Part shown: one piece after another, positions 10,077-19,790 of the stretch | Numbering within the stretch: position 1 is the stretch's first letter | Layout: the number at the start of each line of letters is the position of its first letter | Source: the human T2T-CHM13v2.0 reference genome, Homo sapiens | Reading direction: 5' to 3' (one strand) | Assembly (NCBI RefSeq): GCF_009914755.1 | Contig: NC_060926.1 | DNA: 64,000 nucleotides | Made by a program: the position numbers and the translations under genes | The notes under the pieces: generated by a model | Told to the model about the DNA's origin: nothing | Databases searched by the model: none | Seen by the model: the letters and a program-made list of their open reading frames with translations, nothing else

Positions 10077-10382
<306 letters not shown>

Positions 10383-10567
10383 TCCAGTTGGTTCACCAAT
10401 TTTCAAGCTCCCAAAATAATTCCTCTAGTGAGTACATATAATTCTCTGAAGTACACCATATCAGGCCTAGTTTAGGACCTCCAAATCTTAACACAGGATA
10501 CCACTGTTCCTCACAGCAAACATACAAACACACACAGCCTCTGAAAACAAAAGGTAAAATTACTTAC

Positions 10568-10654
10568 ATCTCTCACAGATATTGTTTCTTCTACTACGAT
10601 TTCCATTTCTGTCCCAGGTTGAACGTCACTCCCCATTGCAAAAAACAGGAACAA
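10568..10654 (-). CDS. USP40: USP40 exon 18: LFLFFAMGSDVQPGTEMEIVVEETISVRD
   Basis: 87 nt, phase 0-0, tag|TTG...GAT|gtaagt. Confidence 0.92.
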
Positions 10655-10903
10655 CTAATAACAAGACAGATGTGTAAATGCAATTTAATCTGAATTTAAA
10701 AATCCAATAAATGTATTATTTACTTTCAAAAATGTAAAGCCAAGGGCCCATGAAACTTTAACAAAAAATCTCAATTTATATGAAAATACGACTATGATTA
10801 ATGTTACAATTTAAGCAATAATTATGCCTACCCAGAAGTATAAATTGCTTCATCATCAATGTTTTTTACTCCTAATAAATGTCTCCCACATACACTACTT
10901 CTT

Positions 10904-11222
<319 letters not shown>

Positions 11223-12227
11223 AACATACACTATTTCTTCTACTATGATCTCCATCTCTGTCTTGATCACTCCCAAAAGGAATTTGTAATTACTACACAC
11301 AGTTAGCATTAGTATGTTTTTTCTGAGTCACTTGGTTATGATTTTATTTTCTGCCAAGGGTTTCAAATATTACAATTCTCAAGACTCCAAAGGAAAAATA
11401 CAAATCTGATCTCTTATTCAGTTCCTCATAGCCCTGCTTTTCCTTTCTAACTCAACCTCACTTGTCATGTTTTCCCTCCTATCAGCTTGTCATGCACTAC
11501 TATTTGCTACGGTTCAGGGGAAAGCAAGTTAAGGGGGAAGTGGTTGGGAAAGTAATGAAGTGAATTTGGGAACCATGGGCAACCTGATTTGAGTCCAGAT
11601 TACCCTGCTACAGGGTATTCACAATAAGAATATCCTTATGATTTCTGCACTGTAATAAGCTGATTAGCTGGGTATGGCTTCTGGCAAAGGTCAAACCTGA
11701 TGGTGTTTTATACTGAAAATGGACACTGTTAAAGACAAGGGGAAAGGGAGGCTGCTCTGAGACTATTAGTGCAGAGAGTAATTAAGTCTAAAATTAATAA
11801 ACTGTGTTTCATTCAACCTAAAATGCTACTGAGTGTTAGACTTACTATTTTCTGTACCAGTGCCAGCTATAACTGCAGAACGTCCCTGACTGTAAGATGC
11901 AACCTAATCTCACAGATGTAAAAATGTGAGAAAAAGAAGGTGTATCTTAGAACTTAGGAAATATAGTGGTTGAAAGTGGTGGCCACTCAGCATCAAAGAT
12001 TCCTTTTAACCACAAAATCTTCACAGAAAAAGAAACATAAATATGCTTTGGCATAATATTTTATATTTAAACATCTAGAACTATAAGGATATATTCCTAA
12101 AATAAAATGTATGATTTAAGAAAAAACTTTTAGAGAAAAACAATATTACTGGAGTAGCTAAGGTACTAGTTATAATTCTGGTTATGGAAGGGTTGATTTT
12201 GTTTTGAAACAGGTGACCTTATTTTAC

Positions 12228-12316
12228 CTGAGACGAACTTGGTGCTTTTCCAAGACACAGTCCCAATGAACTTCCCATCTTCAATTCTGCTTCCTTCAAA
12301 GTATAGCTGTCCGGCA
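12228..12316 (-). CDS. USP40: USP40 exon 17: VPDSYTLKEAELKMGSSLGLCLGKAPSSSQ
   Basis: 89 nt, phase 1-0, aag|TG...CAG|gta; resembles the end of a ubiquitin-like fold. Confidence 0.92.
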
Positions 12317-12325
12317 CTTAAAAAA

Positions 12326-13211
12326 ATTTTGATAATATGATGAAGGTTATTAATTCCTAGCTCTCTAAGAAAAATAAATGCTGAAATCAGTATTTCTTTG
12401 AAAATCAAGAATATCAAGAAAGAAGAAAAATGAGTTGCACTTCAGACAAAAGGATTACATGCACTAAGATTAGGTTTGATTTTCAATTTCCATACTCTTA
12501 AGATATTGTCTTCCTGTTTTCTATGTAACAATGCTAAATGGAAGCTATGAAAGTCTAGTTTCCTACTTAATAAAAATGACTTGTTCAAAGAGCTGTTGTT
12601 TATATAGATTAAAAGCCAGATAATCCAAATCAATCCATAAATGAAGAAGTAGCTTCTTCCAAGTTTAAAGTTGAGATTGTTATTACCATCAATAATTAGG
12701 CTCATCCATGACTAAATTAAATCTAATGGTAAGAGGTGATACAGAGATGAGAACTGAAGATTTTATTTCATAATTGGTATCGCAATAAAATTCACAAAAA
12801 AATGGAAAAATTTTGAAAATAAAGCTGGAAAAAATATAACTAGATCAAACCCGTGAGTAAAATGAGAATCGGATAATCAGAAAGAATGGTGTTTCATTTA
12901 GAAAACAGAAGTGTTTGTTTCTGGTTAAGGATTTCTGCAATATAAAGGTAAGATACCTGGAAGAAAATATGTCCTATAAATCAGTTTCCAAAAGGTAATT
13001 TTTAAATATTAGGTATTGGAGGCCACTATTTATCAAGAAAGACAGACGAGTATAAGCCACCTTTTGAAAGTTATCAAAAAGATTTACCTGGACAAAGAAG
13101 CTTCCCATTTCTATCAATAGGTCTCAAACAGCTGTTGTCAGCTATATATAAAAGGAATATTATTTTTCTTAGAGAGCTAGGAATTAATAACCTTCATCCT
13201 ATTATCAAAAT
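12326..13211. repeat. 52-bp inverted repeat (arms 12326-12377 and 13160-13211, 1 mismatch)
   Basis: Direct reverse-complement comparison; ORF track shows IFLRELGINNLH on both strands. Confidence 0.97.
13088..13141 (-). CDS. USP40: USP40 exon 16: ADNSCLRPIDRNGKLLCP
   Basis: 54 nt, symmetric phase 1-1, tag|CT...G|gta. Confidence 0.9.
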
Positions 13212-13356
13212 AAAAGGAAGCTGGTTACAGCATCAAACACAGAAAACAAAAGAGAGATGCTCTATTGTGTTAATTAGCAGAAAACTACAGAAAGCTAAAA
13301 ACAAAAACAAACCAAAAACCCCCCAACAACCAAAGAAAAAACCCCCAAAATAAGTA

Positions 13357-14197
13357 CAGGCAGTCTTTGTTTTGTGCAGTAGTGCAAGACTAAAAGTACC
13401 TGGTCAAACTGTGCAAAACAATATTAATAATCAATGGAAAAATTACAATCGTTCCATGACACTTAAAAATTTTTGTTGAAACATTTAAAACCCTCTTCGT
13501 TATTAATATTATACATGTATTGGGAAAGGAAAAAACAGTAAAACCAATATTTATACTATAATTTAAAATACTAGAATCTTTGAGAATTAAAATGTTTTCT
13601 GTCTTTGTAAATTACATATAAAGAGTCGTTTAAGCAGGGCTTGGTTTCTTCTCATTGCATAGCTTATAATATAGAGTGACATTTTTCCTGTCCTGTGGCA
13701 AACTGTCATACTCCTTTCTAAGTTTGGATCAGCTTCCAATATCTAGAGTCTCTTGAGTGACTGCAGGGTCAACATTCCCAGAGGTAGCTGCTGCTTCTAT
13801 AACTCCATATACTTTTGTTTCTTTGTGTACTTTCTTCTCTGTTGGTCAATTCCCTCTTTTGATTATGTATTCTTGTAAAATGTCATGGTGGGTTTAGCAC
13901 TACAACACAACTACATGCTTTGCTGTCTGTGTAATGAAGTGTACATGCAGTGACAAACCACCAGACTTGAAAGAAATGAAGTCAATGGTTACTGCTTGTG
14001 GTGCACATGTGTTATTTATGTGATGAATTGTGCCCTGAAGAGCTGGCAGTCAAGTGTGTACTTTATTCAGTTACAGTTAATATACCATATACCATGGTTG
14101 CTGAAATTTTAACCATCTTGCTGGGGGATTGATGTTATATAACTAAATGGTAGTAATGAAATTCGTGCATGTCAGAGCAGTACAAGCAGACTGCCTA
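13357..14197 (-). mobile_element. Tigger6-like TcMar DNA transposon
   Basis: TA-caggcagtc ... gactgccta-TA termini; right end matches the recalled Tigger6 start tgcacgaatttca. Confidence 0.7.
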
Positions 14198-15269: not shown

Positions 15270-17650
<2,381 letters not shown>

Positions 17651-17808
17651 AATTTACATGCATTAAGATACTAATTCACATTCAGTAGAATGGCCATGTT
17701 GGTGTGGATATGGTGATTAGGGAACACTTCAACACTGCTGGTGGGAACATAAACTAGTACAGCCACTATGGAAAACAGTGTGGAGATTCCTTAAAGAACT
17801 AAAAGTAG

Positions 17809-18206
<398 letters not shown>

Positions 18207-18300
18207 TGCACATGCATGTTTATAGCAGCACAGTTTGCAATTGCAAAATCATGGAACCAACCCAAATGCCCATCAATCAATGAGTGGATAAAGAAACTGT

Positions 18301-18301
<1 letters not shown>

Positions 18302-18343
<42 letters not shown>
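18302..18343. repeat. (GT)n microsatellite
   Basis: About 21 perfect GT units. Confidence 0.97.
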
Positions 18344-18346
<3 letters not shown>

Positions 18347-18764
18347 ATGGAATACCACTCAGCCATAAAAAGGAATGAATTAATGGCATTTGCCGTGACC
18401 TAGATGAGATTGGAAACTATTATTATAAGTGAAGTAACTCAGGAATGGAAAACCAAACACCGTATGTTCTCACTGATACGTGGGAGCTAAGCTATGAGGA
18501 CACAAAGGCACAAGAATGATATAGTGGACTTTGGGGACTTGGGGGGAAGGGTGGGAGGGGGATGAGGGATAAAAGACTACAAATAGGGTGTAGTGTATAC
18601 TGCTCGTGTGATAGGTGCACCAAAATCTCACAAAGCACCACTAAAGAATTTACTCATGTAACCAAACACCACCTGTACCCCAATAACCTATGGAAAAAAT
18701 AACAATAAAAAATGTGCTCAAAATATGTTTTTTTTTTTAAAAGTCAAAACCAAACCAGTAACAG

Positions 18765-18801
<37 letters not shown>

Positions 18802-18802
18802 T

Positions 18803-19790
<988 letters not shown>

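What the first reader, a model, noticed from the sequence alone, without database searches (positions are those of the whole stretch)
12326..13211. Near-perfect 52-bp inverted repeat covering two consecutive branch-point regions and enclosing a 54-nt in-frame exon
Seen: 13160-13211 (ttatttttcttagagagctaggaattaataaccttcatcctattatcaaaat) is the reverse complement of 12326-12377 with one mismatch and is not recognisably Alu/L1. On the USP40 pre-mRNA one arm ends 18 nt before exon 13141-13088 and the other ends 9 nt before exon 12316-12228, so each lies where a branch point and pyrimidine tract must be (candidates ctctaag and taataac). The looped ~780 nt holds only the symmetric phase 1-1 exon. 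Known: long-range intronic pairing can control exon skipping, splicing order and back-splicing. Inference: this is a structural splicing switch, or alternatively a template-switch/micro-inversion scar whose arms are kept homogeneous.
Basis: partly seen in the sequence, partly recalled or inferred. Interest (0 to 1): 0.85.

Follow-up and report, generated by a model that had tools for sequence, protein, structure and literature searches.

The report
Inverted 52-bp insertion scar in USP40
A 52-base piece of one USP40 intron was copied backwards into the neighbouring intron, leaving a near-perfect inverted repeat over the branch-point regions of two consecutive exons; it looks like a mutational scar, not a proven splicing switch.

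Summary
12326-12377 and 13160-13211 are reverse complements, 51 of 52. The ends are sharp and these are the only two copies found in the whole assembly.

New here: the arm at 13160-13211 is flanked by an exact 8-bp direct repeat, AAAAGGAA (13150-13157 and 13212-13219; 10 bp if two arm bases are counted). Only 67 of 63,700 same-length segments of the window show this. The other arm has no such repeat. So 13160-13211 is a derived insertion into the pyrimidine tract of the 54-nt exon, copied in reverse from the native branch-point region of the next exon.

The 54-nt exon is found across placental mammals. That excludes transposon ends and a spacer inversion.

AG mapping puts both working branch points inside the arms. 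The RNA duplex is -72 kcal/mol. An annotated cryptic exon, 13174-13198, uses the AG that contains the single mismatch.

One template-switch event is the best explanation. A splicing effect is plausible but untested: I could reach no other-species DNA, RNA-seq or editing data.

The parts
12326..12377 (-). Arm L: native intron sequence just upstream of exon 12228-12316. It is the inferred source of the copy. On the pre-mRNA it holds that exon's only possible branch points, and a decoy pyrimidine tract plus AG at 12366/12365.
   Evidence: Inverted repeat. No flanking direct repeat of 4 nt or more. The AG-free zone 12356-12319 lies inside the arm, with candidates TTAAT (A12350) and ATAAC (A12347).
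13160..13211 (-). Arm R: the derived reverse-complement copy of arm L, inserted into the pyrimidine tract of the 54-nt exon. Its inner end now supplies that exon's branch-point candidates.
   Evidence: 51 of 52 complementary to arm L. Flanked by the direct repeat. The last AG before the true acceptor is at 13169/13168, so the working branch point must be CTAAG (A13169) or ATAAT (A13160).
13150..13157 (.). Left copy of the direct repeat AAAAGGAA, a target-site-duplication-like mark. It extends to 13148-13157.
   Evidence: Exact 8-mer, or 10-mer ATAAAAGGAA when 2 arm bases are included.
13212..13219 (.). Right copy of the direct repeat AAAAGGAA. It extends to 13210-13219 and then overlaps the arm by 2 nt, which is junction microhomology AT.
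   Evidence: Null: 67 of 63,700 52-nt segments have a flank repeat of 8 nt or more under the same search.
13158..13159 (.). Two bases (TA) between the left repeat copy and arm R. They match neither the source nor the target.
   Evidence: Read. Unexplained filler.
13088..13141 (-). 54-nt phase 1-1 coding exon in the loop. It encodes DNSCLRPIDRNGKLLCP.
   Evidence: Translation. The peptide is present in 110 of 120 listed USP40 proteins, from 13 placental orders by my count of the source names.
12228..12316 (-). 89-nt exon. Its acceptor lies 9 nt past arm L.
   Evidence: Hub annotation; translation; acceptor AG at 12318/12317.
13224..13228 (-). GTAAC (A13225): inferred ancestral branch point of the 54-nt exon. 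It sat 22 nt from the exon before the 62-bp gain and now sits 84 nt away.
   Evidence: Motif and distance. The -22 figure is arithmetic: 84 minus 62. Inference, not mapped.
13174..13198 (-). Annotated exon of another transcript, lying inside arm R. Its acceptor AG (13200/13199) contains the single mismatched base. It is the first usable AG after the inferred old branch point.
   Evidence: Hub table and AG map. No GT follows 13174, so it is a terminal exon. Its reading frame gives G|GA TGA, a stop, deduced.

Best explanation
The repeat is the scar of one local mutation. A 52-bp stretch just upstream of exon 12228-12316 (arm L, that exon's native branch-point region) was copied in reverse complement and inserted about 830 bp away, 15 nt upstream of the acceptor of the 54-nt exon. 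The event also duplicated 8-10 bp of the target and added 2 stray bases, a gain of 62 bp. The simplest mechanism is a single switch-and-return of a DNA polymerase, as in the four-point template-switch model. The points fall in the order 3-2-4-1: the copy was made backwards from an already replicated stretch, and synthesis resumed 8-10 nt behind the leaving point. The event split the old pyrimidine tract. It pushed the old branch point from about -22 to -84 and supplied new branch-point-like motifs. It also left a cryptic acceptor that is now annotated. As a by-product the pre-mRNA can form a 52-bp duplex covering the branch points of two consecutive acceptors. I infer that this duplex is usually outrun. 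Arm R is transcribed 834 nt before arm L, so it can be occupied by splicing factors, or removed with its intron, first. The exons would then stay constitutive. At most the duplex would impose an order of intron removal, cause low-level skipping or unproductive splicing, and attract A-to-I editing. Shown here: the repeat, its uniqueness, the flanking duplication, the age of the exon, the AG/branch-point geometry and the folding energy. Inferred: the polymerase mechanism, the date and the kinetic outcome.
For: The repeat is real and far beyond chance. Only two copies were found in the assembly, and the 771-nt intron is otherwise unique at E<=10. The ends are sharp. Arm R alone is flanked by AAAAGGAA...AAAAGGAA; this occurs in 67 of 63,700 null segments (0.1%), and arm L has none. 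The repeat extends to 10 nt, with a 2-nt overlap with the arm, which is microhomology at one switch point. The four-point model states that a 2->3 fragment overlapping L->1 creates a new inverted repeat able to form RNA structure, and that direct repeats can also arise (PMC5453318, section 4). The 54-nt exon occurs across placentals (110 of 120 proteins), whereas 1 difference in 52-60 sites gives a point age of about 8-19 My, 95% range 0.2-107 My, using recalled rates of 0.5-1e-9 per site per year. The annotated cryptic exon 13174-13198 starts at the first usable AG after the displaced GTAAC, as expected if that was the old branch point (hub table). All 7 human-identical and 25 Pan proteins listed keep the exon. 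This fits a mostly silent duplex.
Against: No outgroup DNA could be examined, so the ancestral empty site is inferred and not seen. The two bases TA at 13158-13159 are unexplained. By eye I found no microhomology at the return junction. The 782-nt spacing is well beyond the +/-100 nt that published great-ape scans allow (PMC7954356 passages), so there is no direct precedent at this range in what I read. The site on the gene's sense strand reads TTTT/AT, and the inserted + strand equals the gene's own sense RNA, which also fits an RNA-templated insertion. Both arms lie within 18 nt of consecutive acceptors. That is an unlikely coincidence for a neutral event: my rough post hoc estimate is of order 1e-3, from arithmetic and no call. 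The equilibrium fold predicts the stem with pair probability about 1, so 'mostly silent' rests on kinetics that I did not measure. Proteins are clustered at 90% identity, so an 18-aa-shorter human isoform could be hidden inside a cluster.
Confidence: 0.6

Rival explanations
1. RNA-templated insertion. A fragment of USP40's own intron RNA was reverse-transcribed into a nick or break in the neighbouring intron, either by L1 ORF2p target-primed reverse transcription or by reverse-transcriptase-mediated break repair. This would be a 'templated sequence insertion' in cis.
For: The flanking duplication of 8-10 bp. The sense strand at the site reads TTCCTTTT/ATATAT, matching the 5'-TTTT/A-3' preference (criteria from PMC5110952). 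The + strand of arm R equals the sense pre-mRNA at arm L, the orientation expected if cDNA was primed from the nicked sense strand. Two stray bases at the far junction are typical of such joins. Intronic sequences are among reported templates.
Against: There is no poly(A) tract of 10-40 A and no AATAAA in the insert; both are listed as class 1 features. The source lies only about 830 bp away on the same DNA. That is natural for a polymerase jump but needs a tethered nascent RNA in this model. At 52 nt the insert is shorter than the 73-414 bp experimental insertions described.
Confidence: 0.2
2. Selected structural splicing switch. The duplex is kept because it regulates USP40. It could force the upstream intron to be removed first. 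It could mask the cryptic acceptors at 13200/13199 and 12366/12365. Or it could loop out the 54-nt exon so that the old branch point (A13225, 13 nt before the stem) and the acceptor at 12318/12317 (8 nt after the stem) sit about 22 nt apart and splice directly, giving an in-frame 18-aa deletion.
For: Both functional branch points must lie in the arms (AG map). The duplex is -72 kcal/mol, and -47.7 kcal/mol for the outer 36 bp alone. The 961-nt fold has z = -7.45. Exons looped out by complementary pairs have lower inclusion, and such pairs obstruct cryptic sites (PMC8052449 passages). Inverted Alu pairs promote loop-out skipping (abstract of 10.1101/2025.03.07.642063). The placement next to two acceptors is improbable by chance. 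Exact skipping of this exon (KEL|VPD) appears in 2 of 120 listed gene models, P0062 and P0074, so the in-frame deletion is at least a modelled product in vole and deer.
Against: The arm is a derived insertion, so any function is lineage-specific and recent. 51 of 52 identity is what a young neutral copy looks like and needs no selection. Conserved complementary pairs tend to avoid branch points and active splice sites, and the most stable ones are depleted within 75 nt of splice sites. No human or Pan protein listed lacks the exon. The two skipping models come from species whose DNA I could not inspect, and they may be annotation artefacts. No USP40 entry was found in the 3 supplementary files held for the PCCR paper; the full catalogue is not in them.
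Confidence: 0.12
3. An ancient, conserved inverted repeat whose arms are repeatedly homogenised by gene conversion or template switching.
For: Template switching has been proposed to maintain perfect stems (PMC8794818 passages). The age estimate has an upper bound of about 50-107 My.
Against: Homogenisation does not explain a clean 8-10-bp direct repeat flanking only one arm, nor the absence of any weaker homology beyond the 52 nt.
Confidence: 0.05
4. Terminal inverted repeats of a DNA transposon, or breakpoint duplications of an inversion of the 782-bp spacer.
For: An inverted repeat with an 8-bp duplication superficially recalls hAT-type elements (recalled).
Against: The duplication flanks one arm, not the whole 886-bp unit; the outer flanks are TTAAAAAA and AAAAGGAA. 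There are only two copies of the arm in the genome and no other copy of the spacer. The spacer holds a sense-oriented coding exon shared across placentals.
Confidence: 0.02

Closest known systems
Short-range template-switch mutations (four-point model; Loytynoja & Goldman 2017, PMC5453318; Walker et al. 2021, PMC7954356; Monttinen & Loytynoja 2022, PMC8794818)
   Same: A reverse-complement copy of a nearby stretch is made in one event. It creates a new perfect inverted repeat able to form an RNA stem, and direct repeats can arise from the return point.
   Different: The source and copy are 782 nt apart, whereas the published scans look within +/-100 nt or 'tens to hundreds' of nt. The copy is 52 nt, near the largest pattern those authors mention, 59 bp. 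The copy sits in a splice-acceptor region. The ancestral state was not observed here.
Class 1 templated sequence insertions (L1 ORF2p-mediated; Onozawa & Aplan 2016, PMC5110952)
   Same: A unique, non-repeat sequence is inserted with a target-site duplication of at least 5 bp at a TTTT/A site. Intronic RNA is a possible template.
   Different: There is no poly(A) tail and no polyadenylation signal. The donor is about 830 bp away in the same gene instead of a distant locus, and the insert is very short.
Exon loop-out by intronic complementary pairs (PCCRs, Kalmykova et al. 2021, PMC8052449; inverted Alu pairs, Denisko et al. 2025 preprint)
   Same: Two complementary intronic stretches flank a short symmetric exon. 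The predicted duplex is far more stable than that paper's <-30 kcal/mol class.
   Different: The pair is not Alu-derived, is not known to be conserved, and covers two branch-point regions, which such pairs tend to avoid. No effect on inclusion has been shown.

Membership tests
Template-switch mutation (four-point model) | [quoted passage not shown] | tested here: met
   52 nt, 51 of 52, 782 nt apart, only two copies in the genome.
Template-switch mutation (four-point model) | One switch-and-return event accounts for all the changes at the site | tested here: inconclusive
   Point order 3-2-4-1 explains the inverted copy, the 8-10-bp direct repeat and the 2-nt microhomology. The TA at 13158-13159 is left over.
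Template-switch mutation (four-point model) | The ancestral sequence without the copy is seen in an outgroup | not testable with these tools
Template-switch mutation (four-point model) | Short range, as used in published scans (template within about 100 nt) | tested here: not met
   The spacing is 782 nt; the scans use +/-100 nt. PMC8794818 notes that longer distances could be allowed.
Class 1 templated sequence insertion (L1 ORF2p) | Target-site duplication of at least 5 bp | tested here: met
   AAAAGGAA on both sides of arm R; criterion.
Class 1 templated sequence insertion (L1 ORF2p) | Insertion at 5'-TTTT/A-3' | tested here: met
   The sense strand reads TTCCTTTT followed by ATATAT at the inferred nick.
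Class 1 templated sequence insertion (L1 ORF2p) | Non-templated poly(A) of 10-40 A, with AATAAA 10-20 nt upstream | tested here: not met
   The insert ends ...TCAAAAT and is followed directly by the duplicated 8-mer. There is no AATAAA in the 52 nt.
DNA transposon with terminal inverted repeats | Target-site duplication outside both ends, many copies in the genome, no host exon inside | tested here: not met
   The outer flanks differ. Only two arm copies exist and the spacer is unique. A placental-wide coding exon lies inside.
Conserved complementary pair (PCCR) / exon loop-out element | Complementary intronic regions flanking an exon with a stable predicted duplex | tested here: met
   -72 kcal/mol, and mean pair probability 0.96 in a 1.5-kb context.
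Conserved complementary pair (PCCR) / exon loop-out element | Both regions conserved across vertebrates, with compensatory changes | not testable with these tools
   No alignments are held. The insertion signature argues against deep conservation of arm R.
Conserved complementary pair (PCCR) / exon loop-out element | Lower inclusion of the looped exon | tested here: inconclusive
   All 32 human-identical and Pan proteins listed include the exon, but isoforms are clustered at 90% identity and no RNA-seq data are available.
Inverted Alu pair | The arms are Alu elements | tested here: not met
   The arms have 23-25% G+C, are unique in the genome and are unlike the Alu pairs.

The most novel reading that the evidence does not exclude
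The insertion created a lineage-specific RNA switch. When the 52-bp stem forms, it packs arm R, the 54-nt exon, the 771-nt intron and arm L into one hairpin. That hairpin sits between the displaced old branch point (A13225, 13 nt before the stem) and the acceptor of the next exon (AG 12318/12317, 8 nt after the stem). The effective branch-point-to-AG distance becomes about 22 nt, flanked by CTTCCTTTT and TTTTTTT, and the 54-nt exon is skipped in frame (18 aa). When splicing factors reach arm R first, both exons are included, and the 36 free bases of arm R may still delay the downstream intron until the upstream one is gone. One mutation would then have turned a constitutive exon into a switch that depends on transcription speed or U2 availability.
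Probability: 0.12. Interest if true: 0.7.

Novelty: new member of a known kind. Interest (0 to 1): 0.38.

Why it matters
If the origin is confirmed, this is a clean, datable example of a long-range (about 0.8 kb), long (52 bp) inverted templated insertion. Published template-switch scans would miss it. It landed inside a working splice acceptor, replaced that acceptor's branch point and was still fixed.

It is also a natural experiment on a practical question: how does the splicing machinery cope with a -72 kcal/mol duplex that covers the branch points of two consecutive constitutive exons? Public data (junction reads, lariat reads, editing sites, primate alignments) and one minigene series could answer it. 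If the duplex does change splicing, it would show how a single mutation creates a structural splicing switch. If it does not, it sets a useful limit on how much thermodynamic folding predictions mean for nascent pre-mRNA.

Tried and rejected
- **Transposon ends:** rejected. The arm is unique in the genome, the flanking repeat is around one arm only, and an ancient exon lies inside.
- **Spacer inversion with duplicated breakpoints:** rejected for the same exon reason.
- **A longer, decayed inverted repeat around the 52 nt:** not found.
- **Known RNA family:** only two hits, at E 0.4 and 0.74, both far below their gathering scores.
- **'Restored pyrimidine tract' figure:** removing arm R raised the pyrimidine fraction at -25..-3 from 0.57 to 0.83. 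I now discount this, because that deletion keeps both copies of the duplicated 8-mer. By my hand count, removing the full 62 bp gives about 0.67. The flanking repeat is the sounder evidence.
- **Base skew of the arms as a clue to direction:** uninformative (hand count).
- **Literature on USP40:**
  - USP40 + circRNA gave 6 papers. I opened one and it only cites a USP40 paper.
  - USP40 + exon + skipping gave 4 papers. One reports a USP40 cassette exon changed in sarcopenia, but the passages I saw do not name the exon. One lists a mutation-linked skip id.
  - USP40 + ADAR gave 8 papers, none relevant by title or abstract.
  - The six-term search listed 20 of 3,327 papers, none holding USP40, so it says little.
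  - Within these searches I found no description of this repeat.

Full report
**1. Observation**

The repeat is exactly as described. The repeat finder reports arms 12326-12377 and 13160-13211, 52 nt, 98% complementary, 782 nt apart. A pattern search allowing 3 mismatches finds only these two sites in the 64-kb window, and no match in any of 100 dinucleotide-preserving shuffles. The one mismatch is T12338 against C13199 on the + strand, which gives A opposite G on the USP40 (minus-strand) pre-mRNA.

A strict local alignment of the flanks returns just the 52 nt; a permissive one adds only noise. The arms have 23-25% G+C against 36.5% for the window. Of the 25 longest of 35 inverted pairs within 5 kb in the window, all the others are Alu-like or A/T runs by my reading, at 75-97% identity.

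The distances to the exons (18 nt and 9 nt), the phase 1-1 reading of the 54-nt exon and the two branch-point-like motifs are all correct.

**2. Not a repeat family**

Searching the whole assembly (3.1 Gb, the window's own) with 66 nt around arm L gives two places only, the two arms.

- The 771-nt intron between the exons is unique apart from the arm, even at E<=10.
- The 419 nt upstream of the 54-nt exon hit 40 places, but all hits other than the query itself and arm L fall at query positions 211-419. That is window position about 13352 onward, an old dispersed repeat at 70-82% identity that does not touch the arm.
- The tool warns that its counts are lower bounds.
- Rfam gives nothing near threshold.

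**3. The looped exon is old**

A 106-aa exon of the window (P0001) retrieved 268 USP40 proteins, of which 120 were listed.

- In 110 of those 120 the peptide encoded by the 54-nt exon is present directly before the peptide of the 89-nt exon. By the sources' names these include primates, elephant, dugong, sengi, rhinoceros, horse family, carnivores, ruminants, bats, moles, rodents, pika, colugo and tree shrew.
- Of the 10 without it, 8 also lack the next exon's peptide; these are truncated or divergent models.
- The other 2 (P0062, a vole; P0074, a deer) join KEL directly to VPD, which is exact skipping of this exon.
- All 7 human-identical and all 25 Pan entries contain the exon.

An exon shared across placentals, in sense orientation, cannot sit inside a young transposon or a recently inverted segment.

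**4. Which arm is the copy**

Arm R (13160-13211) is bracketed by an exact direct repeat, AAAAGGAA, at 13150-13157 and 13212-13219. Two bases (TA) lie between the left copy and the arm. Counting the last two bases of the arm, the repeat is 10 nt, ATAAAAGGAA (13148-13157 and 13210-13219), so there is a 2-nt microhomology at that junction.

Applying the same search to every 52-nt segment of the window, 67 of 63,700 (0.1%) have a flank repeat of 8 nt or more. Arm L has none of 4 nt or more.

So arm R is a 52-nt reverse-complement copy of arm L, inserted with 2 extra bases and an 8-10-bp duplication of the target. The gain is 62 bp, about 15 nt upstream of the acceptor of the 54-nt exon.

One difference in 52-60 sites gives a point age of about 8-19 My, with a 95% range of 0.2-107 My, at recalled rates of 0.5-1e-9 per site per year. 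The event is probably within primates, but I could not check it: no tool here holds other mammalian DNA.

**5. Mechanism of origin**

- **DNA template switch (my preference).** In the four-point model, replication leaves at point 1, copies 2->3 in reverse complement and returns at point 4. The authors state that when 2->3 overlaps the already copied part, a new inverted repeat able to form RNA structure arises, and that direct repeats can also be produced (PMC5453318, section 4). Here the order 3-2-4-1, with the return 8-10 nt behind the leaving point, explains every feature except the TA. The published scans search only within about +/-100 nt (PMC7954356 passages), so an event spanning 782 nt would not be in their lists. 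The largest pattern mentioned in PMC8794818 is 59 bp.
- **RNA-templated insertion (the rival).** The sense strand at the site reads TTTT/AT, the L1 endonuclease preference. There is a target-site duplication. The + strand of arm R is identical in sense to the gene's own intron RNA at arm L. These are two of the class 1 features of templated sequence insertions. The poly(A) tract and polyadenylation signal are missing (PMC5110952, parts 1-2 read; sequence).
- **My weighting.** The donor lies only about 830 bp away on the same DNA, so I prefer the DNA template switch (about 0.6) over the RNA route (about 0.2).

**6. Consequences for the acceptors**

Mapping AG dinucleotides on the sense strand shows the following.

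- The last AG before the true acceptor of the 54-nt exon is at 13169/13168.
- The last AG before the acceptor of the 89-nt exon is at 12358/12357.

By the established rule that the first AG downstream of the branch point is used (recalled, not tested here), the working branch points must lie at about 13169-13160 and 12350-12333. Both ranges are inside the arms.

Before the insertion, a GTAAC (A13225) would have sat 22 nt from the exon; now it is 84 nt away. The first usable AG after it is 13200/13199. This is the acceptor of the annotated alternative exon 13174-13198, and it contains the single mismatched base. That exon has no GT after it and reads G|GA TGA, so it marks a truncated, stop-containing product (hub table).

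Arm L, the native sequence, carries a decoy: TTTATTTTTCTT followed by AG at 12366/12365. Using it would add 48 nt with an in-frame TAG (read).

**7. The duplex**

- The two arms pair at -72 kcal/mol.
- In a 1,501-nt context the 52 arm-arm pairs have a mean probability of 0.96.
- A 961-nt fold has z = -7.45 against 20 shuffles.
- If factors cover only 13144-13175, the remaining 36 nt of arm R can still pair with 12326-12361, which includes the next exon's branch points, at -47.7 kcal/mol.

These are equilibrium predictions. In the cell arm R emerges 834 nt before arm L. I therefore infer a first-come-first-served outcome in which both exons are normally spliced, consistent with the protein sets.

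The PCCR study reports that conserved complementary pairs avoid branch points and active splice sites, obstruct cryptic ones, lower the inclusion of looped-out exons, and are enriched for editing sites and transcript ends (PMC8052449 passages). By those trends a stable pair over two active branch points is atypical. That fits an unselected newcomer better than a tuned regulator. The transcript end annotated inside arm R fits the reported enrichment of transcript ends.

**8. What remains open**

Whether the duplex forms in vivo and changes splicing is untested. The boldest reading that the data allow is this: the stem places the old branch point (13 nt before it) and the next exon's AG (8 nt after it) about 22 nt apart, so that stem formation yields in-frame skipping of the 54-nt exon. 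I give that 0.12. Section 4 above covers the missing outgroup DNA.

**9. Verdict**

This is a real, unusual and well-placed inverted repeat. It is best explained as the scar of one templated inverted insertion, a new example of a known kind of mutation. As a natural test case for splicing it is moderately interesting. Its regulatory role is unproven.

Noticed in passing
window 10077-10391 and 10893-11229: An inverted pair of Alu elements flanks the in-frame 87-nt exon 10568-10654. The left element is forward with an A tail; the right one is reversed. Arms of 178 nt at 79% and 133 nt at 83% lie about 530-880 nt apart. This is the classic layout for loop-out skipping or back-splicing.
   Followed up: partly
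window 13174-13198: An annotated exon of another USP40 transcript lies wholly inside arm R. Its acceptor AG (13200/13199) exists only because of the single arm-to-arm mismatch. No GT donor follows it, and the frame gives an immediate stop. An A-rich run follows on the sense strand, so internal priming of a cDNA is possible.
   Followed up: partly
proteins P0062 and P0074: Two predicted USP40 models, named by their sources as a vole and a deer, join KEL directly to VPD. This is precise skipping of the 54-nt exon. Whether it reflects real isoforms, assembly gaps or annotation artefacts is unknown.
   Followed up: no
window about 13352-13560: An old dispersed repeat, matching at least 38 other places in the assembly at 70-82% identity. 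It lies about 140 nt upstream (sense) of arm R. The tool gives no family name.
   Followed up: no
window 12365-12377: The native arm L carries a strong-looking decoy acceptor: an 11-nt pyrimidine-rich run, then AG at 12366/12365, with CTGAT (A12387) 22 nt upstream. Using it would add 48 nt with an in-frame TAG.
   Followed up: partly
window 17053-19104: Several Alu elements in both orientations lie within the 7-kb intron upstream of the 54-nt exon. Pairs of 126-176 nt reach 84-88%. They could compete in RNA folding with the arm pair.
   Followed up: no
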